Shown: piece after piece, positions 20,029-60,751 of the stretch | Position numbering within the stretch: the first letter of the stretch is position 1 | Layout of the letters: every line of letters starts with the position of its first letter | Virus record (IMG/VR): IMGVR_UViG_650716090_000002 | Direction: 5' to 3' (one strand) | Source: an uncultured virus (IMG/VR IMGVR_UViG_650716090_000002) | Lineage: Duplodnaviria > Heunggongvirae > Uroviricota > Caudoviricetes | DNA: 64,000 nt | Program-made: the position numbers and the translations under genes | Notes under the pieces: model-generated | Told to the model about the DNA's origin: nothing | Databases searched by the model: none | What the model saw: only the letters and a program-made list of their open reading frames with translations

Positions 20029-21251
20029 TAAATACCTCCACTAAATAATTGGACGAACGTGTTATTATTTTCGTCACTGTGTATTGCATACCTCAAAGCA
20101 TCGAGAACGTCGTCATATTCTTTTATGACTTCGTCCTTTGTGCTGTTAGGTTTCCATTTATATTGATAAATTTCATCAAAAAAACGAGGTATCGCACCTC
20201 GTAAAATATAGAGTTTCTTCTCTTTGAATTTCTTGGCTATCGTTTCAATACCAGCGATAACTTCTTTTCTTGCATTGCGTGCGTCTAGGTCTGCATCCAT
20301 TAATGCACTGACATGCTCATGACGGGCACTGTCGCACCAAAAAACTAAGTCACCGCCGTATTTTTCGTTGAATTGTTTAGCTTTATCTATCCACCAGTCA
20401 ATATAATGACCTTTTTCGGATATACCATCCACTAAATAAAGGTTGTCATCTACACCCTCACCGATTATCACAATAGAACCATAGTGATCAAAGCCCCAGT
20501 CAACGCCAGCAAAATAACGTTTCATCTCTGGTAAGCTATCCACAATGTGAATATCTTTGTTGAAATCGCTATAAACTGCACCTTCAGCAATTGTCCAAAG
20601 GCCTAAAATATCTCTATCGTAAAACTTGCCATTTGGCGTTGCTGATTTGATGTTCTCGATATATCTTTTTGAAAGAAACGTGTTGTCATCTAACTTAAAA
20701 GCAAAATCGATGATCATCTTGTCTTTATTATTGATATAGTCACGATTAAGCCAATGGTTGGGATTGTCTGGATTGCTATCCCATACTATACGCGCATCAG
20801 TCCCAGAACACCGTGAAATGATTTCTTTGAACACTACTTCATTAGCAAGTGACGCCTCATTTACATAAGCACCAAAAGCAGTGAAACCACGAGCACGTTT
20901 AAGCCCACTGATTGAACCAGTATAGACTTGAACAACTTTAACACCTCTGAAAGTGAAAGAACCATGTTTGTCATACTTAGGTTCGAAACCATATTTATTG
21001 TATAGCTCTTGTAGCACGTTGTTTTGAATACTTGTTGAAGACGTGCCAGCTAATATATACATTGGTTCATCTATGCCTAATCTATTCGCTATGGATCGCA
21101 CACGGTCAAGCTCGGTTATAAACGTGTCATTATTAACAACAGTCTTACCTGCCCGCTTAGCACCATGCAAACCGCAAATAAACCAGTCGTGGTTCCAAAT
21201 ATAACTAAGCACTTCCAATTGTCTAGGTGTGTAGATATCAGATAGGCTCAT
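20028..21251 (-). CDS. terL: Terminase large subunit, PBSX family
   Basis: GAKRAGKT Walker A; GVDWG and DDVLDALRYA nuclease motifs. Confidence 0.93.
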   Translation of the reverse strand: MSLSDIYTPRQLEVLSYIWNHDWFICGLHGAKRAGKTVVNNDTFITELDRVRSIANRLGIDEPMYILAGTSSTSIQNNVLQELYNKYGFEPKYDKHGSFTFRGVKVVQVYTGSISGLKRARGFTAFGAYVNEASLANEVVFKEIISRCSGTDARIVWDSNPDNPNHWLNRDYINNKDKMIIDFAFKLDDNTFLSKRYIENIKSATPNGKFYDRDILGLWTIAEGAVYSDFNKDIHIVDSLPEMKRYFAGVDWGFDHYGSIVIIGEGVDDNLYLVDGISEKGHYIDWWIDKAKQFNEKYGGDLVFWCDSARHEHVSALMDADLDARNARKEVIAGIETIAKKFKEKKLYILRGAIPRFFDEIYQYKWKPNSTKDEVIKEYDDVLDALRYAIHSDENNNTFVQLFSGGI

Positions 21252-21726
21252 CAGAAATAGCCTCCTTGATTTTATTCATCAAGTTCGAAATCTTATCGTC
21301 TTGTCCTTCATCGCCACCAACTTGTAATTTAAGTTTATCGATTTCAAGTTGCATTTTTTCTGCTTGTTTAGATGTTGGATAACGCTTAAGAATTTCAACT
21401 ATCGCTTTAATAACTGTGTTATTGTCAGGCTTTTTATATATCCGACTAACTTCTCCAGTTATTGGGTTCATCATTAGAATTTCTTCTTCACGCTTACCTT
21501 TTGCGATGTCAGAAAGTATCGATAAAGCTTCAGTAGCTGTTAAAATGTTTTCAGACTGCATCTTCTCGACTTGATTTTCAATATATGATTTTATCCCTAC
21601 ATTTCCCAACAATTCTTTTGATCGTTTGTTTGCATAATTTTCACTATAACCAGCTTTAATTGCTGATTGGTAAGCATTCCCAGAAGCGATATACTCATCT
21701 GCGAATTGTCTTTGTCTTTCGTTTAT
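21238..21726 (-). CDS. terS: Terminase small subunit (likely ATA start)
   Basis: (I)NERQRQFADEYIASGNAYQSAIKAGYS HTH in frame upstream of the tracked ORF; GAAAGGAG RBS. Confidence 0.85.
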   Translation of the reverse strand: MNERQRQFADEYIASGNAYQSAIKAGYSENYANKRSKELLGNVGIKSYIENQVEKMQSENILTATEALSILSDIAKGKREEEILMMNPITGEVSRIYKKPDNNTVIKAIVEILKRYPTSKQAEKMQLEIDKLKLQVGGDEGQDDKISNLMNKIKEAISDEPI

Positions 21727-21752: not shown

Positions 21753-21777
21753 TAAAAAGCCACTCAATGAGTGACTA
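21753..21777 (-). terminator. Intrinsic terminator ending the non-coding leader upstream of terS
   Basis: AGTCACTC-ATT-GAGTGGCT followed by TTTTATT on the minus strand; identical at 59334-59357. Confidence 0.7.
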
Positions 21778-21910
21778 AGTATGCGATATGTCAGTGCTTC
21801 CCTGACTATTACAGTTATATAGCGCTACTTTTGTAATATCCTAAGGGTTATCAGCCCGATGCTAAATATCGCCTTATATCAATTCGTGAGAGCTACTCAC
21901 ATTAATATAA

Positions 21911-22013
21911 TAGGAACAGTCGGAATCGAACCGACACTATCTCGTATAGGAAGCTATCCTATGAGCACGTATATCTATCCACGTATCAGTATTCCTCACT
22001 GATTTACATTCCT
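21911..22013 (-). ncRNA. Non-canonical tRNA-like cloverleaf RNA
   Basis: Acceptor AGGAATG/TGTTCCT, T-arm GTCGG-TTCGATT-CCGAC and three further hairpins; conserved at 59436-59538. Confidence 0.7.
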
Positions 22014-22018
22014 AACAA

Positions 22019-22165
22019 CTTCCCTCATCTTACACAATAGGCTAGTCATCCTATTTATGTGTGACAATGTATGACACTGGAAGTACAGTCAACCCCACTC
22101 GGCTTCAGCCCGTCAGCGGTTTTACCAATCGTCATTGGAAGGGATATGACTATCAACCTCAGTAA
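22019..22165 (-). ncRNA. Pseudoknotted multibranch structured RNA (unknown)
   Basis: Several hairpins plus loop ATGACTA pairing with TAGTCAT; conserved at 59544-59690 with changes mostly in loops. Confidence 0.55.
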
Positions 22166-22226
22166 TATAAACTAAGCAAGCAATCGCTCCCTAGATACGA
22201 TAGTCGGACAATGTCTGGACTATCTA

Positions 22227-22297
22227 CAGACCTTGTAAGAATCGAACTCACGATAACTGGTTTGGAGTCAGTTGTGTTACCACTACACCAAAGGCCT
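22227..22297 (-). tRNA. tRNA-Trp (CCA anticodon), no encoded 3' CCA
   Basis: AGGCCTT/AAGGTCT acceptor; GTGT-AGTGGTA-ACAC D-arm; anticodon loop CTCCAAA; T-arm GTGAG-TTCGATT-CTTAC. Confidence 0.9.
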
Positions 22298-22301
22298 ATA
22301 A

Positions 22302-22342
22302 CAACCACTGCACGAATCGAACGTGCGTCGCCAGTATGGTTA
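22302..22342 (-). ncRNA. Anticodon-less mini-tRNA (acceptor plus T-arm)
   Basis: AACCAT-ACTGGCGAC-GCACG-TTCGATT-CGTGC-A-GTGGTT. Confidence 0.65.
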
Positions 22343-22379
22343 CAGCAAATATCTAAAGCGGTCTCTTTTCAGGACCTGA

Positions 22380-22426
22380 TGAGCATAGCAGGATTCAAAC
22401 CTGCGATACTCCCGATAGATATCTCA
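22380..22426 (-). ncRNA. Anticodon-less mini-tRNA (slightly degenerate)
   Basis: TGAGATA...GG...GCAGG-TTTGAAT-CCTGC-TATGCTCA; perfect version at 59827-59874. Confidence 0.55.
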
Positions 22427-22429
22427 GCC

Positions 22430-22511
22430 AAATAGTAAGTTCGATTTATAATATGGTAATCGTCTAATCATATGTAGACCAGTTGTTAATTGTTATCTCT
22501 TCTTACTATTT
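22430..22511 (-). ncRNA. 5'-terminal multibranch RNA module of the late leader
   Basis: 10-bp closing stem AAATAGTAAG/CTTACTATTT with internal hairpins; conserved at 59906-59987. Confidence 0.5.
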
Positions 22512-22564
22512 CAATAATACTATATTACTAAATTAAATAGTATTTGTGAGTAATAGTTAGTCAA

Positions 22565-22999
22565 TTATAATACTATAGTAGTATTATTTAGTAAATCATT
22601 AAGATTTTCTATCGCTTTCCTCTTGATTGTATAGTATGTGTTGCGATTCATTTCCAATCTATCTATTGCTTCATCATAAGTTTGACAGTTAACAAACGTA
22701 GTTACCAACACATGCCGTTGAGTTATGTCAGGAAGTTGCATAATCATTTGAATGATATTGCCTTTTCGTCTGTCAAGCTCTCCAATCTGTTCAGCGTAGT
22801 ATTCACCTTTAATGATATTGTTGATATTTTTGTCAGTCTGTGATTGCTTAATCCCTCCTTGGACTTTCATATCAGACCACTGTGGACTAGACAACACAGA
22901 TTGACTGCTAGTCATATCTCTTTCAAGCTCTTTAATTAATTTTGGTATTACCCTTAATTCTTTTAACAACATATCAGCTTTTGTCTGATTTCGCCCCAT
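22565..22999 (-). CDS. Late transcriptional activator (RinA/ArpU-like)
   Basis: Sigma70 region 4-like C-terminal HTH; last early gene before the terminase region. Confidence 0.75.
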   Translation of the reverse strand: MGRNQTKADMLLKELRVIPKLIKELERDMTSSQSVLSSPQWSDMKVQGGIKQSQTDKNINNIIKGEYYAEQIGELDRRKGNIIQMIMQLPDITQRHVLVTTFVNCQTYDEAIDRLEMNRNTYYTIKRKAIENLNDLLNNTTIVL

Positions 23000-23227
23000 T
23001 TATTGCACTCCTTATGGTATAATATAGTTATCAACTAATACCAGAGCGCTCTTTCGTGGGGCGCTTTTTGTTGTCTTATCGAAACCTCTCTTTTATTTAT
23101 TTTTGGACAGGCACACAATCCGTATTGAAATTCTCACAATGCCTTATTTAATTTCAGATAACCGATAATCTGATTTAGATTTAGTATTTATGACGTAAGG
23201 AGACCTCCATTTTTTAATTTCGGTTAA

Positions 23228-23269
23228 TACCAACCGAGCGAATCGAACGCTCGTGATACCTTTGTTGGT
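23228..23269 (-). ncRNA. Anticodon-less mini-tRNA
   Basis: ACCAAC-AAAGGTATCA-CGAGCG-TTCGATT-CGCTCG-GTTGGT-A; T-stem covaries with 60710-60751. Confidence 0.7.
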
Positions 23270-58832: not shown

Positions 58833-59307
58833 CAGAAATAGCCTCCTTGATTTTATTCATCAAGTTCGAAATCTTATCGTCTTGTCCTTCATCGCCACCA
58901 ACTTGTAATTTAAGTTTATCGATTTCAAGTTGCATTTTTTCTGCTTGTTTAGATGTTGGATAACGCTTGAGAATTTCAACTATCGCTTTAATAACTGTGT
59001 TATTATCAGGCTTTTTAAATATTCGATTAACTTCTCCAGTTATAGGGTTCATCATCAGGATTTCTTCTTCACGCTTACCTTTTGCGATGTCGGAAAGTAT
59101 CGATAAAGCTTCAGTAGCTGTTAAAATATTTTCAGACTGCATCTTCTCGACTTGATTTTCAATATATGATTTTATCCCTACATTTCCCAACAATTCTTTA
59201 GATCGTTTGTTTGCATAATTTTCACTATAACCAGCCTTGATTGCTGATTGGTAAGCATTCCCAGAAGCGATATACTCATCTGCGAATTGTCTTTGTCTTT
59301 CGTTTAT
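58819..59307 (-). CDS. terS: Terminase small subunit (likely ATA start)
   Basis: Same as 21238-21726. Confidence 0.85.
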   Translation of the reverse strand: MNERQRQFADEYIASGNAYQSAIKAGYSENYANKRSKELLGNVGIKSYIENQVEKMQSENILTATEALSILSDIAKGKREEEILMMNPITGEVNRIFKKPDNNTVIKAIVEILKRYPTSKQAEKMQLEIDKLKLQVGGDEGQDDKISNLMNKIKEAISDEPI

Positions 59308-59435
59308 TTTCTATCACTCCTTTCAATGCATAATAAAAAGCCACTCAATGAGTGACTAATTGCATATTAAGTTAGAGCGATATGCTATTCTCTAACCCCT
59401 TCGCGCTATGACCTCGTAAGGATTCATACGCTCTA

Positions 59436-59538
59436 TAGGAACAGTCGGATTCGAACCGACACTATCTCATATAGGAAGCTAGCCTATGAGCACGTATATC
59501 TATCCACGTATCAGTATTCCTCACTGATTTATATTCCT
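59436..59538 (-). ncRNA. Non-canonical tRNA-like cloverleaf RNA
   Basis: Acceptor AGGAATA/TGTTCCT; T-arm GTCGG-TTCGAAT-CCGAC. Confidence 0.7.
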
Positions 59539-59543
59539 AACCA

Positions 59544-59690
59544 CTTCCACCATCTTACACAATAGGCTAGTCATCCTATTTATGTGTGACAATGTATGAC
59601 ACTGAAAGCATAGTCAACTCCACTCGGCATTTGCCCGTCAGCGGTTTTACCAATCGTCATTGGAAGGAATATGACTATCAACCTCAGTAA
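59544..59690 (-). ncRNA. Pseudoknotted multibranch RNA
   Basis: Homolog of 22019-22165. Confidence 0.55.
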
Positions 59691-59749
59691 AAACCAACAC
59701 GTCAGTACGTAACTGCCTTTCGGAATGTTGGGTAGCTCTTTCGAGCAGA

Positions 59750-59790
59750 CAACCATTGCACGAATCGAACGTGCGTCGCCAGTATGGTTA
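59750..59790 (-). ncRNA. Anticodon-less mini-tRNA
   Basis: AACCAT...TGG...GCACG-TTCGATT-CGTGC-A-ATGGTT. Confidence 0.65.
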
Positions 59791-59826
59791 CAGCAAATAT
59801 CTAAAGCGGTCTGTTTTTAAGACCTA

Positions 59827-59874
59827 TTGAGATAGCAGGAATCGAACCTGCGATACTTCCAATGATTATCTCAA
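59827..59874 (-). ncRNA. Anticodon-less mini-tRNA
   Basis: TGAGATA-ATCATTGGAAGTATC-GCAGG-TTCGATT-CCTGC-TATCTCA-A: perfect 7+5 bp. Confidence 0.72.
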
Positions 59875-60024
59875 CTGGTTCCCGTTGGGGTACCGTTCCA
59901 ATTCAAAATAGTAAGTTCGATTTATTTATAAGTAATCGTCTAATCATATGTAGACCAGTTGTTAATTGTTATCTCTTCTTACTATTTCGATAATATAATA
60001 ATAACACGTATTATTATGCATAAA

Positions 60025-60474: not shown

Positions 60475-60709
60475 TCAGCCCCCATTTATGGTATAATATA
60501 GTTACGAACATATACCAAGGCGCTCTTTCGTGGGGCGCTTTTTGTTGTCTTATCGGAGTAGCTATACCTCTTTTCTTTTTTATTTTCGGACAGGCACACG
60601 ATCCGCATTGAAATTCTCACGATGCCTTACTTAATTTCAGATAACCGATAATCTGATTTAGATTAGTATTTATGGCGTAAGGAGACCTCCATTTTTTAAT
60701 TTCGGTTAA

Positions 60710-60751
60710 TACCAACCGCAGGAATCGAACCTGCGTGATACCTTTGTTGGT
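60710..60751 (-). ncRNA. Anticodon-less mini-tRNA
   Basis: ACCAAC...CGCAGG-TTCGATT-CCTGCG-GTTGGT-A. Confidence 0.7.

What the first reader, a model, noticed from the sequence alone, without database searches (positions are those of the whole stretch)
21753..22520. Modular array of small structured RNAs in the late-operon leader (both prophages)
Seen: about 760 nt here (about 650 nt at 59334-59990) with no credible ORF, bounded by the late activator gene and an intrinsic terminator just before terS. It is tiled with self-contained folds. Five modules are shared in the same order: the 5' multibranch module, two mini-tRNAs, the pseudoknotted RNA and the cloverleaf. Others are swapped. tRNA-Trp, 22171-22226 and 21783-21872 occur only in prophage 1; 59371-59433, 59694-59746 and 59877-59895 occur only in prophage 2. 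T-loops and GAAA tetraloops read on the minus strand. Inference: an exchangeable RNA-gene cassette expressed at induction, possibly anti-defence or translation-modulating. Known large prophage RNAs of Lactobacillales (GOLLD, ROOL) also lie near tRNAs, but this region looks like separate modules rather than one fold.
Basis: partly seen in the sequence, partly recalled or inferred. Interest (0 to 1): 0.88.

Follow-up and report, generated by a model that had tools for sequence, protein, structure and literature searches.

The report
Phage tRNA-like RNA cassette array
The gene-free stretch ahead of the DNA-packaging genes in two Streptococcus parauberis prophages is a string of small folded RNAs (one real tRNA, several tRNA look-alikes and other folds) that related phages swap like cassettes, and in some relatives the same slot holds the giant GOLLD RNA.

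Summary
Window 22564-21727 (minus strand) is about 838 nt without a credible ORF, between a DUF1492 (LtrB-type) late activator gene and terS, in prophage Javan383. A second copy lies at about 60024-59306 and matches Javan384. Rfam and ARAGORN recognise only tRNA-Trp.

Comparison with more than 100 streptococcal phage contigs shows selected RNA structure in four kinds of module:
- an 86-nt 5' motif directly behind a conserved promoter-like block;
- tRNA minihelices (acceptor stem plus T arm);
- a 128-nt motif ahead of a conserved terminator.

Modules are exchanged with breakpoints at the tRNA-like elements. In 6 of 40 related leaders scanned, the same slot carries GOLLD RNA between a minihelix and a tRNA. 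The window has neither GOLLD nor ROOL.

Best reading: a phage tRNA island laid out as an RNA-gene array in the late-operon leader, with tRNA-like elements serving as RNase P/Z cutting signals and recombination joints. Expression, processing and any anti-defence role are untested. The "pseudoknot" label is unsupported.

Verdict: a new variant of a known kind. Interest 0.62.

The parts
22565..22999 (-). Late transcriptional activator gene (DUF1492 = LtrB family)
   Evidence: Pfam DUF1492 E 9.8e-18 and phrog_36 E 1.5e-25. DUF1492 is named family III LtrB of late activators in PMC3753634 (passages).
22514..22564 (-). Activator-type-specific block plus a conserved AT-rich -10-like block; presumed Ltr binding site and late promoter (inferred)
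   Evidence: A -10-like block directly precedes the 5' module in all 38 distinct contexts, while the sequence further upstream differs by activator type. It is also kept where the downstream module differs. A promoter-like TTGACT-16-TACTAT lies at 22564-22537.
22428..22513 (-). 5' leader motif: an 11-bp closing stem, a 3-bp stem and an inner hairpin
   Evidence: RNAalifold on 32 distinct sequences gives 20 pairs, 99.7% of cells paired, 3 pairs with changes on both sides, 0 of 500 shuffles reaching the covariation score, and no slid register above 53% paired.
22378..22426 (-). tRNA minihelix 1 (acceptor-like stem plus T arm). The copy in prophage 1 is slightly off consensus, with T loop TTTGAAT.
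   Evidence: The prophage 2 copy, 59873-59827, scores 22.2 bits on Rfam tRNA with the D and anticodon arms deleted. The family recurs with acceptor variants that compensate each other.
22302..22341 (-). tRNA minihelix 2 (6-bp acceptor, 9-nt linker, T arm GCACG/CGTGC)
   Evidence: T arm found. It is shared by both prophages. A relative has a perfect 7-bp acceptor.
22226..22298 (-). tRNA-Trp (anticodon CCA), prophage 1 only
   Evidence: ARAGORN. Rfam tRNA 58.4 bits. About 78% identical to host tRNA-Trp genes over 51 nt.
22171..22226 (-). Two hairpins, prophage 1 only
   Evidence: MFE -17 kcal/mol, z -2.1. One metagenome contig joins this hairpin to minihelix 2 without the tRNA-Trp (table 5). No comparative test was done.
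22014..22158 (-).
   Evidence: Shared by both prophages at 94% identity. z is only -0.78. There is one compensatory pair between the two copies in the long-range stem (read). The 33-mer occurs in 23 IMG/VR stretches with different sequence behind it. Pseudoknot not shown.
21911..22013 (-). Non-decoding tRNA-like RNA (TLS): acceptor stem, D-like arm with a GG loop, extra hairpin, small hairpin with a 5-nt UAGCU loop, canonical T arm
   Evidence: Model R1 scores 57 bits, E 2.5e-9; the second copy at 59538-59436 scores 58.3 bits. Across 40 distinct sequences 96.2% of cells are paired, 5 of 5 D-arm pairs change on both sides, and 0 of 500 shuffles reach the score. ARAGORN does not call it and Rfam tRNA-Sec gives only 18.3 bits.
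21783..21910 (-). 'Pre-terS' structured motif (long hairpin plus multi-helix domain), prophage 1 only
   Evidence: 45 pairs, terminator included, over 10 distinct sequences in two clades: 99.6% paired, 13 pairs with changes on both sides, slid registers give at most 2. z -2.96. No Rfam match.
21753..21776 (-). Conserved intrinsic terminator-like hairpin and U tract, about 25 nt ahead of terS
   Evidence: BLAST hits to it in 109 fetched loci. A variant with a compensated inner stem was read.
21238..21726 (-). terS (Terminase_2); the frame opens at ATA 21726 after an in-frame TAG
   Evidence: The ATA sits where S. mitis-group homologues have TTG.
59306..60024 (-). Second copy of the array (prophage matching Javan384). 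Parts: 5' motif 59989-59904; extra hairpin 59895-59877; minihelix 1 59873-59827; minihelix 2 about 59789-59750; GNRA/terminator-like module 59746-59694; two-domain module about 59680-59539; TLS 59538-59436; own module 59433-59371; terminator about 59355-59337.
   Evidence: The 59746-59694 module has a homologue with two compensated pairs in other phages.
23215..23262 (-). Further tRNA minihelix upstream of the activator gene; counterpart at 60744-60697
   Evidence: The two copies differ by three compensated pairs in the T stem. z -2.1.

Best explanation
The interval is a phage tRNA island arranged as a co-oriented array of RNA genes. It lies in the leader between the late activator gene and terS of two S. 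parauberis siphovirus prophages.

Shown:
- It is non-coding.
- It holds one canonical tRNA-Trp.
- It holds a conserved, non-decoding tRNA-like RNA, two minihelices made only of an acceptor stem and a T arm, and at least two non-tRNA motifs whose helices are kept by compensatory changes.
- It ends in a conserved terminator-like hairpin.
- Modules are swapped between phages, with breakpoints at the tRNA-like elements.
- Related phages carry GOLLD RNA in the same slot, flanked by a minihelix and a tRNA.

Inferred:
- The array is transcribed from the Ltr-dependent late promoter, which sits directly behind the activator gene.
- The host's RNase P (5' side) and RNase Z (3' side, CCA-less precursors) cut at every tRNA-like element. 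This releases the tRNA, the tRNA look-alikes and the RNAs between them.
- The terminator acts as an attenuator, so the RNA genes are made in excess over the late mRNA that reads through into terS.

What the released RNAs do is open. The most likely roles are supplying or replacing tRNAs and engaging factors that recognise the tRNA body.
For: Non-coding status.

tRNA-Trp.

tRNA-like element (TLS):
- The exact 25-mer of its T arm plus 3' acceptor strand occurs in 106 IMG/VR stretches.
- The covariance model hits both window copies at E about 1e-9.
- All 5 D-arm pairs and 3 of 4 small-hairpin pairs change on both sides. Acceptor changes always keep the pair.
- A copy found without the 25-mer bait has two compensated T-stem pairs.
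- No host tRNA lies within 3 mismatches of the 23-mer in the 5 genomes searched.

Minihelices: 58 of 303 distinct T-arm contexts have a 7/7 acceptor within 20 nt, against 22 with a shuffled 3' strand. Families show compensating acceptor variants.

Processing hallmarks: no encoded CCA. A purine then T follows the acceptor in 15 of 19 distinct minihelices and 53 of 66 distinct full tRNA(-like) elements, and in all 8 window elements listed.

5' motif. Pre-terS motif.

Promoter-like block at the 5' edge. Ltr binding blocks lie just distal to ltr genes in the phages studied (PMC3753634, passages).

Cassette exchange. Contig breakpoints fall at 21937, 22226, 22299-22303 and 22377.

GOLLD in the same slot: 6 of 40 leaders scanned. 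The order 5' motif, minihelix, GOLLD, tRNA-Ser, TLS was read.

GOLLD expression rises at lysis, and GOLLD lies near tRNA islands (preprint 10.1101/2024.12.08.627333, passages).
Against: - There are no expression or end-mapping data. No RNA run holds the stretch.
- Single-sequence fold energies are unremarkable for several modules: z -0.49 for the piece 22499-22413 (it lacks the 5' strand of the 5' motif's closing stem) and for minihelix 2, and -0.78 for the two-domain module.
- The T arm was invariant in 40 of 40 baited sequences by construction. Its extreme DNA-level conservation could also reflect a DNA function.
- Pre-terS covariation rests on essentially one contrast between two clades.
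- A terminator sits between the presumed promoter and terS, so co-transcription with late genes needs read-through that has not been shown. A promoter-like match overlapping the terminator (21777-21749, 9 of 12) could instead start the late mRNA.
- The 40 leaders scanned for GOLLD were chosen by me and include near-duplicates.
Confidence: 0.6

Rival explanations
1. The stretch is chiefly a cis-acting regulatory leader of the late operon. In this reading the 5' motif, placed right behind the promoter, modifies RNA polymerase or binds a factor. This would resemble the HK022 put RNAs or the Bacillus EAR element (both recalled from memory). Transcription could then pass the internal terminator-like hairpins and the conserved terminator before terS.
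For: - The 5' motif starts within a few bases of the conserved -10-like block in 38 of 38 distinct contexts and is structured.
- A conserved terminator lies about 25 nt before terS.
- A second hairpin followed by a U run sits inside the leader of prophage 2 and of relatives.
Against: - It does not explain a functional tRNA, tRNA look-alikes or GOLLD in the same slot.
- Phages with the same promoter-like block carry different 5' modules.
- No antitermination factor or assay is at hand.
- It is compatible with the best explanation rather than exclusive of it.
Confidence: 0.2
2. The conserved pieces act as DNA rather than RNA. They could be recombination linkers between phage modules, binding sites of the activator or of TerS (pac), or remnants of attachment sites.
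For: - A 25-nt stretch is identical in 106 IMG/VR stretches.
- The terminator is identical over about 30 nt across species.
- A 33-nt linker is conserved with unrelated flanks.
- Homology breakpoints coincide with these pieces.
Against: - Compensatory changes keep helices in the D-like arm, small hairpin, 5' motif, pre-terS motif, minihelix acceptors and T stems (minihelices upstream of the activators).
- All elements share one strand.
- The tRNA-like pieces have both acceptor strands, unlike att-site tRNA 3' fragments.
- A role as recombination joints can coexist with RNA function.
Confidence: 0.12
3. The tRNA look-alikes are decaying tRNA genes. The rest is neutral spacer of a degenerating tRNA island without present function.
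For: - S. mitis-group phages have ordinary-looking tRNAs with a similar acceptor at the TLS position.
- Some TLS types sit at the edge of tRNA detection: 31.1 bits in L022 and ARAGORN 'Ile' calls.
- Minihelix 1 of prophage 1 is off consensus.
Against: - Non-decoding forms are kept in many phages of several host species with compensatory changes and no broken acceptor pairs at positions 3-7.
- Minihelices keep perfect 7-bp acceptors and the purine-T 3' context.
- The phage keeps more than 800 nt of it in a compact genome.
Confidence: 0.08
4. The whole interval is one large ornate RNA, a divergent GOLLD or ROOL relative.
For: The size is about 0.8 kb. It holds many helices, T loops and GNRA loops. 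Its position is identical to GOLLD in related phages.
Against: - No GOLLD or ROOL match even at E<=10.
- BLAST against three GOLLD regions finds only T arms.
- Modules occur independently and in other combinations.
Confidence: 0.04

Closest known systems
GOLLD (RF02032) and ROOL (RF03087) loci in phage and prophage tRNA islands
   Same: Prophage location next to tRNAs. Same strand and the very same slot: 6 of 40 related streptococcal leaders scanned carry GOLLD between the 5' motif/minihelix and a tRNA plus TLS. tRNAs sometimes lie in the GOLLD linker, and expression rises at lysis (preprint passages; PMC5737381 passages).
   Different: The window has no GOLLD or ROOL. Its cargo is several small independent modules. 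I found no paper among those listed that describes the position in the Ltr-controlled late leader or the minihelix/TLS flanks.
tRNA (RF00005) and tRNA minihelix model substrates of RNase P (recalled: McClain, Guerrier-Takada and Altman 1987)
   Same: A 7-bp acceptor stacked on a 5-bp T stem with a canonical T loop; purine discriminator; TLS also has a D-like loop with GG.
   Different: TLS has a 5-nt loop where the anticodon loop should be, plus extra hairpins. The minihelices lack D and anticodon arms altogether. No CCA is encoded. Cleavage is untested.
Phage T4 tRNA gene cluster with stable 'species 1 and 2' RNAs; E. coli tufB operon (tRNAs co-transcribed with a protein gene). Both recalled, not looked up.
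   Same: Non-tRNA stable RNAs, or an mRNA, share a transcript with tRNAs and are separated by tRNA-processing enzymes.
   Different: A different phage group. Here the array sits in the late-operon leader, and the tRNA-like elements are mostly non-decoding.
Viral tRNA-like processing handles: murine gammaherpesvirus 68 tRNA-miRNA units; MALAT1 mascRNA (recalled)
   Same: A non-decoding tRNA mimic joined to another RNA, with RNase P/Z releasing the partner.
   Different: Those are eukaryotic systems. No evidence here for processing.
Phage-encoded tRNAs that counter tRNA-cutting defences (PARIS: PMC11464382; Septu: PMC13096335; OLD: PMC12445682; search listing and abstracts only)
   Same: Related leaders carry tRNA-Lys(UUU), Tyr(GUA), Ser(GCU), Thr(UGU) and Trp(CCA). 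The window's tRNA-Trp differs from host tRNA-Trp by about 22% over 51 nt.
   Different: No defence system or assay links to these tRNAs here. A decoy role of the non-decoding mimics is speculation.
Streptococcus sRNA SpF41 (RF02435)
   Same: The Rfam consensus shows an outer stem enclosing a T-arm-like hairpin, followed by a terminator hairpin. This is the layout of minihelix 1 plus the hairpin at 22376-22360 (alignment).
   Different: 19 bits against a gathering score of 52, so not a member.

Membership tests
tRNA (RF00005 / ARAGORN) - tRNA-Trp 22298-22226 | Full cloverleaf with a 7-nt anticodon loop, scoring above the family threshold | tested here: met
   58.4 bits against gathering 29. ARAGORN calls tRNA-Trp with anticodon cca.
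tRNA - TLS 22013-21911 | Score above the Rfam tRNA threshold, or an ARAGORN call | tested here: not met
   No tRNA match. tRNA-Sec gives 18.3 bits against 47. ARAGORN finds nothing there. One other TLS type reaches 31.1 bits (L022).
tRNA - TLS 22013-21911 | 7-nt anticodon loop able to decode | tested here: not met
   The small hairpin has a 4-bp stem and a 5-nt loop in the consensus and in the window copy.
tRNA - TLS 22013-21911 | Acceptor stem, T arm with T-loop consensus, D loop with GG | tested here: met
   The D-like stem covaries at 5 of 5 pairs.
tRNA minihelix (RNase P/Z, CCA-enzyme substrate) | Acceptor stem stacked on a T arm, without D and anticodon arms | tested here: met
   Rfam tRNA alignment with both arms deleted, 22.2 bits. 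58 of 303 distinct T-arm contexts qualify, against 22 in the control.
tRNA minihelix (RNase P/Z, CCA-enzyme substrate) | Cleavage by RNase P / RNase Z | not testable with these tools
   Only the sequence context could be checked: no CCA, and purine then T after the acceptor.
GOLLD RNA (RF02032) | Match to the conserved 3' domain model | tested here: not met
   No match in the window at gathering or at E<=10. BLAST against GOLLD regions finds only T arms. Relatives L027, L088, L052, L057, L060 and L080 score 245-274 bits.
ROOL RNA (RF03087) | Match to the Rfam model | tested here: not met
   No match in the window or in the 40 related leaders scanned.
SpF41 sRNA (RF02435) | Score at or above gathering 52 | tested here: not met
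   19 bits, E 5.3.
Intrinsic terminator | GC-containing hairpin followed by a U run | tested here: met
   8 pairs, 4 of them GC, loop of 3, then a T run. Termination itself is not testable here.
Ltr late activators, family III LtrB (DUF1492) | DUF1492 domain; gene directly upstream of the terS region | tested here: met
   E 9.8e-18; position. Family naming from PMC3753634 passages. The prophage 2 activator has no Pfam match and only phrog_248.

The most novel reading that the evidence does not exclude
The tRNA minihelices and the non-decoding tRNA-like RNA form a phage-borne punctuation and cassette-exchange system with three functions:
- They direct RNase P/Z to excise cargo RNAs from the late transcript, including the cage-forming GOLLD RNA in relatives.
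- They act as the joints at which phages swap these cargos.
- The conserved tRNA mimic is itself an effector. It could be a decoy or sponge for host factors that recognise the tRNA body, such as tRNA-cutting defence nucleases.

If so, the late-operon leader would be a programmable RNA payload bay of streptococcal phages.
Probability: 0.3. Interest if true: 0.8.

Novelty: new variant of a known kind. Interest (0 to 1): 0.62.

Why it matters
GOLLD and ROOL are among the largest bacterial RNAs of unknown function. What is in print (passages read) places them only loosely 'near tRNA islands' in prophages.

Streptococcal phages give a defined, genetically tractable setting:
- a fixed slot between the Ltr late activator and terS;
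- a conserved promoter-like block and 5' motif at the start;
- tRNA-like elements on either side of each cargo;
- a conserved terminator at the end.

This makes testable how such RNAs are expressed, cut out and exchanged. It also adds at least three structured RNA motifs that Rfam 15 does not hold: the tRNA-like RNA, the 5' motif and the pre-terS motif. Finally, it shows that automatic annotation leaves about 0.8 kb of these prophages blank.

Tried and rejected
- Whole-genome tools for the window: no genome is held. I worked from a related genome handle instead.
- terS-based locus search gave few loci: 1 genome and 11 viral contigs. The RNA modules do not travel with terS type, so I switched to DNA motifs.
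- Expression: no RNA holder listed. The four runs laid are metagenome contigs, probably DNA, and say nothing on transcription.
- Host tRNA 3' fragment or att-site idea for the 25-mer: no host copy within 3 mismatches in 5 genomes.
- Hidden protein genes: none of the 5 ORFs matches Pfam or PHROGs.
- Divergent GOLLD in the window: rejected.
- Alanine-tRNA or tmRNA-like reading of the TLS (UAGC loop, G3:U70 in some copies): dropped. Most copies have A3:U70 and a 5-nt loop.
- MAFFT alignment of the TLS misregistered the D-like arm, so pairs were counted on a model-fitted alignment, which leans towards the model's structure.
- Pseudoknot in 22158-22014: only two near-identical sequences exist, so no test was possible.
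- Earlier notes of this scan by place and by sequence: nothing.
- Literature searches listed no paper on tRNA-like elements in streptococcal late leaders. Subscription journals and supplements were not seen.
Full report
**1. Where we are**

The 829-nt query 22564-21736 (minus strand) is 100% identical to Streptococcus phage Javan383, whose host is S. parauberis KCTC 11537. The stretches of Javan384 that I compared match the second copy in the window.

All genes here are on the minus strand.
- Upstream lies a 144-aa protein with DUF1492 (E 9.8e-18) and phrog_36 'transcriptional regulator'. In the second prophage the upstream protein is a 149-aa phrog_248 'transcriptional activator' with no Pfam match.
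- Downstream lies a Terminase_2 small terminase.
- Passages of Quiles-Puchalt et al. 2013 (PMC3753634) name DUF1492 as family III (LtrB) of the Ltr late activators. They place the Ltr binding block 'just distal' to the ltr gene in the phages studied.

The deposited records annotate nothing between these genes.

**2. The observation**

The interval 22564-21727 is about 838 nt.
- Its longest ORFs are 74, 49 and 47 aa.
- These, and the two longest of the second copy, match nothing in Pfam or PHROGs at E<=0.1.
- ARAGORN finds one tRNA in the whole 64-kb window, tRNA-Trp(CCA) at 22298-22226.
- Rfam at gathering thresholds finds only that tRNA.
- At E<=10 there is no GOLLD or ROOL match. There are only sub-threshold tRNA-type matches: 22.2 bits for a 47-nt piece in which the D and anticodon arms are deleted, and 18 bits on tRNA-Sec.
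- A terminator-like hairpin with a T run lies at 21776-21758.
- All eight T arms with a TTCGAWT loop in the window are on the minus strand, in or beside the two leaders.

Single-sequence folding is only modestly better than shuffles, with z from -0.49 to -2.96. The case therefore rests on comparison with other phages.

**3. The 'cloverleaf' is a widespread non-decoding tRNA-like RNA**

Its T arm plus 3' acceptor strand is an exact 25-mer found in 106 IMG/VR stretches. Together with other loci this gave 99 distinct contexts and 41 distinct elements.

Constrained folds show a common plan:
- a 6-7-bp acceptor stem;
- a D-like arm whose loop carries GG;
- a small hairpin with a 5-nt UAGCN loop in the place of the anticodon arm;
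- one or more variable hairpins;
- a canonical T arm.

A covariance model built from 38 sequences (R1) hits the window at 22013-21911 (57 bits, E 2.5e-9) and at 59538-59436 (58.3 bits). Ordinary tRNAs score 27 bits or less.

Counts on 51 matches, 40 of them distinct:
- 96.2% of cells are paired, against 90.1% in shuffles (0 of 500 shuffles reach it).
- All 5 pairs of the D-like stem, and 3 of 4 in the small hairpin, change on both sides.
- The acceptor varies only on its 5' strand and stays paired through G-U.
- The alignment was fitted to the model, which favours the structure.
- The T arm is invariant because it was the bait.

An unbaited search of 151 species genomes of the genus found the element in 5. 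One copy has a T stem with two compensated pairs.

No host tRNA lies within 3 mismatches of the 23-mer in the 5 genomes searched.

In S. mitis-group phages the same position holds ordinary-looking tRNAs with a similar acceptor. The element therefore probably descends from a phage tRNA gene.

**4. Minihelices**

The 'mini-tRNAs' consist of an acceptor stem placed directly, or after a 9-17-nt linker, on a T arm.
- Of 303 distinct T-arm contexts in all fetched DNA, 58 have a perfect 7-bp acceptor within 20 nt. A shuffled 3' strand gives 22.
- The recurrent families show compensating acceptor variants.
- No CCA is encoded. A purine followed by T comes after the acceptor in 15 of 19 distinct minihelices, in 53 of 66 distinct full tRNA(-like) elements, and in all eight window elements listed.
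- From memory (Pellegrini et al. 2003, not looked up), this is the context of CCA-less precursors cut by RNase Z in Bacillus.

A further minihelix lies upstream of each activator gene, at 23262-23215 and 60744-60697. These two differ by three compensated T-stem pairs.

**5. The non-tRNA modules**

*5' module, 22513-22428.*
- It occurs in 32 distinct forms.
- RNAalifold gives an 11-bp closing stem, a 3-bp stem and an inner hairpin.
- 99.7% of cells are paired, and 3 pairs change on both sides.
- 0 of 500 shuffles reach the covariation score, and slid registers stay at or below 53% paired.
- It begins right after a conserved AT-rich -10-like block. The sequence further upstream changes with the activator type.
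- The block is kept even where the downstream module differs. This fits a promoter with an activator-specific site, though that is an inference.
- In nearly all contexts a minihelix or tRNA-like element follows directly.

*Module 21910-21783, prophage 1 only.*
- It has homologues at about 73% identity in S. mitis-group phages.
- The consensus fold has 45 pairs, terminator included. 99.6% of cells are paired, and 13 pairs change on both sides. Slid registers give at most 2.
- Only two clades exist, so this is essentially one evolutionary contrast.
- A model of it (R2) finds 3 of 151 species genomes.

*The prophage 2 module at 59746-59694.* It has a homologue with two compensated pairs and ends in a U run.

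*The roughly 145-nt shared module, 22158-22014.*
- It opens with a 33-nt linker found in 23 IMG/VR stretches with other sequence behind it.
- Its own fold has weak support: z -0.78 and one compensated pair.
- No pseudoknot could be tested.

**6. Cassette behaviour**

Homology to other phages is piecewise.
- Between the two copies, divergence starts at the 3' end of minihelix 2 and at the 3' end of the tRNA-like RNA. It ends at the 33-nt linker and at the terminator.
- Contigs of four metagenome runs break at 21937, 22226, 22299-22303, 22377, 22120/22168 and 22430. One contig joins minihelix 2 to the next hairpin without the tRNA-Trp.
- These contigs say nothing about expression.
- Leaders of 69 distinct loci carry one to seven T-arm elements. 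ARAGORN calls include Trp, Lys(ttt), Ser(gct), Tyr(gta), Thr(tgt), Leu, Val, Gly, one 'Stop(tta)' and several undetermined.

**7. GOLLD in the same slot**

I scanned 40 related leaders against Rfam. I chose them myself, and they include near-duplicates. Six gave full-length GOLLD matches of 245-274 bits on the same strand. None gave ROOL.

In L052 the order is: promoter-like block, 5' motif, minihelix, GOLLD, tRNA-Ser, tRNA-like RNA. L027 has a 1.4-kb leader with GOLLD followed by the tRNA-like element, the pre-terS motif, the terminator and terS.

The window shares nothing with these GOLLD regions except T arms.

Published passages place GOLLD and ROOL in prophages near tRNA islands, mention tRNAs in the GOLLD linker, and report a rise of GOLLD at lysis.

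**8. How it most likely works**

Shown: the anatomy, selection on RNA helices, exchange of modules, and the equivalence of the slot to a GOLLD locus.

Inferred:
- Transcription starts at the Ltr-dependent promoter directly behind the activator gene.
- RNase P and RNase Z cut at every tRNA-like element. Minihelices are sufficient RNase P substrates (recalled: McClain, Guerrier-Takada and Altman 1987).
- The cuts release tRNA-Trp, the mimics and the RNAs between them.
- The terminator 25 nt before terS works as an attenuator.

Possible roles of the products:
- The tRNAs found in related leaders belong to species that known defence nucleases cut (abstracts only).
- The window's tRNA-Trp differs from host tRNA-Trp by about 22% over 51 nt.
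- A replacement or decoy role is therefore plausible, but it is speculation.

**9. Rivals**

- A purely cis-regulatory leader (antitermination or attenuation) explains the 5' motif and the terminators. It does not explain tRNA, mimics and GOLLD.
- DNA-level functions explain the extreme conservation of three short blocks but not the compensatory changes. They may coexist with RNA function, for example as recombination joints.
- Decaying tRNA genes are contradicted by the kept pairing.
- One giant RNA is contradicted by the independent occurrence of the modules.

**10. Novelty**

The kind is known: phage tRNA islands with ornate RNAs.

New here, as far as my searches show (subscription journals and supplements not seen):
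- the non-decoding tRNA-like family, the minihelices, and the 5' and pre-terS motifs, none of which is in Rfam 15;
- the placement of the array, and of GOLLD, in the Ltr-controlled late leader of streptococcal phages.

Earlier notes of this scan report tRNA mimics trailing GOLLD, and GOLLD-containing RNA arrays, in other phage groups. They are AI notes that I did not check. I treat them as leads that lower the surprise, not as support.

Noticed in passing
window 23215-23262 (-) and 60697-60744 (-): A further tRNA minihelix sits between the last early gene and the activator gene in both prophages. The two copies differ by three compensated pairs in the T stem. This lies outside the finding's coordinates.
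   Followed up: partly
window 22544-22571 (+) and 23043-23077 (+): The best promoter-like match of the region (10 of 12, TTGTGA-16-TATAAT) points antisense into the activator gene. A terminator-like hairpin with a T run on the plus strand lies just beyond the gene's start. Together they would bracket a roughly 500-nt antisense RNA over the late activator. The hairpin is also present in prophage 2.
   Followed up: no
window 21724-21726 (-); likewise about 59305: The terS frame with the Terminase_2 domain opens right after an in-frame TAG at ATA, 9 nt behind GGAG. Homologues in S. mitis-group phages have TTG at that codon. GenBank starts the gene about 38 codons later at an internal TTG. This is either a non-canonical start codon or a misannotated start.
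   Followed up: partly
L027:1750-2144(-), L088:1583-1967(-), L052:1195-1570(-), L057:1503-1878(-), L060:1200-1575(-), L080:456-831(+): Full-length GOLLD RNA matches (245-274 bits) lie in streptococcal prophage leaders between a minihelix and a tRNA, upstream of the tRNA-like RNA and terS.
   Followed up: partly
L088:1497-1572(-): ARAGORN calls a tRNA with anticodon tta ('Stop', would read UAA) directly downstream of GOLLD. Rfam tRNA gives it 49.9 bits. Several leaders also hold tRNA-like genes with an undetermined anticodon.
   Followed up: no
window 21955-21971 and 21883-21897 (-); TLS small hairpin in many loci: Hairpin loops with a conserved UAGC core recur in the small hairpin of the tRNA-like RNA and in the first hairpin of the pre-terS motif (forms such as UAGCG, AUAGCUU, GUAGCUC, GUAGCUA). 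Several contain short self-complementary words, which could allow loop-loop contacts. Not tested.
   Followed up: no
L042:1690-1760; L027:2690-2730(-): Another conserved roughly 40-nt motif, enclosed by a 9-bp stem, follows the tRNA-like RNA in many pyogenic-group phages. It also occurs upstream of GOLLD in an S. mitis-group phage, so it is one more member of the cassette pool.
   Followed up: no
L004 (Javan623) 482-1039: In this S. uberis phage, the gene ahead of the same kind of leader is annotated 'integrase: site-specific recombinase' (185 aa) rather than a DUF1492 protein.
   Followed up: no
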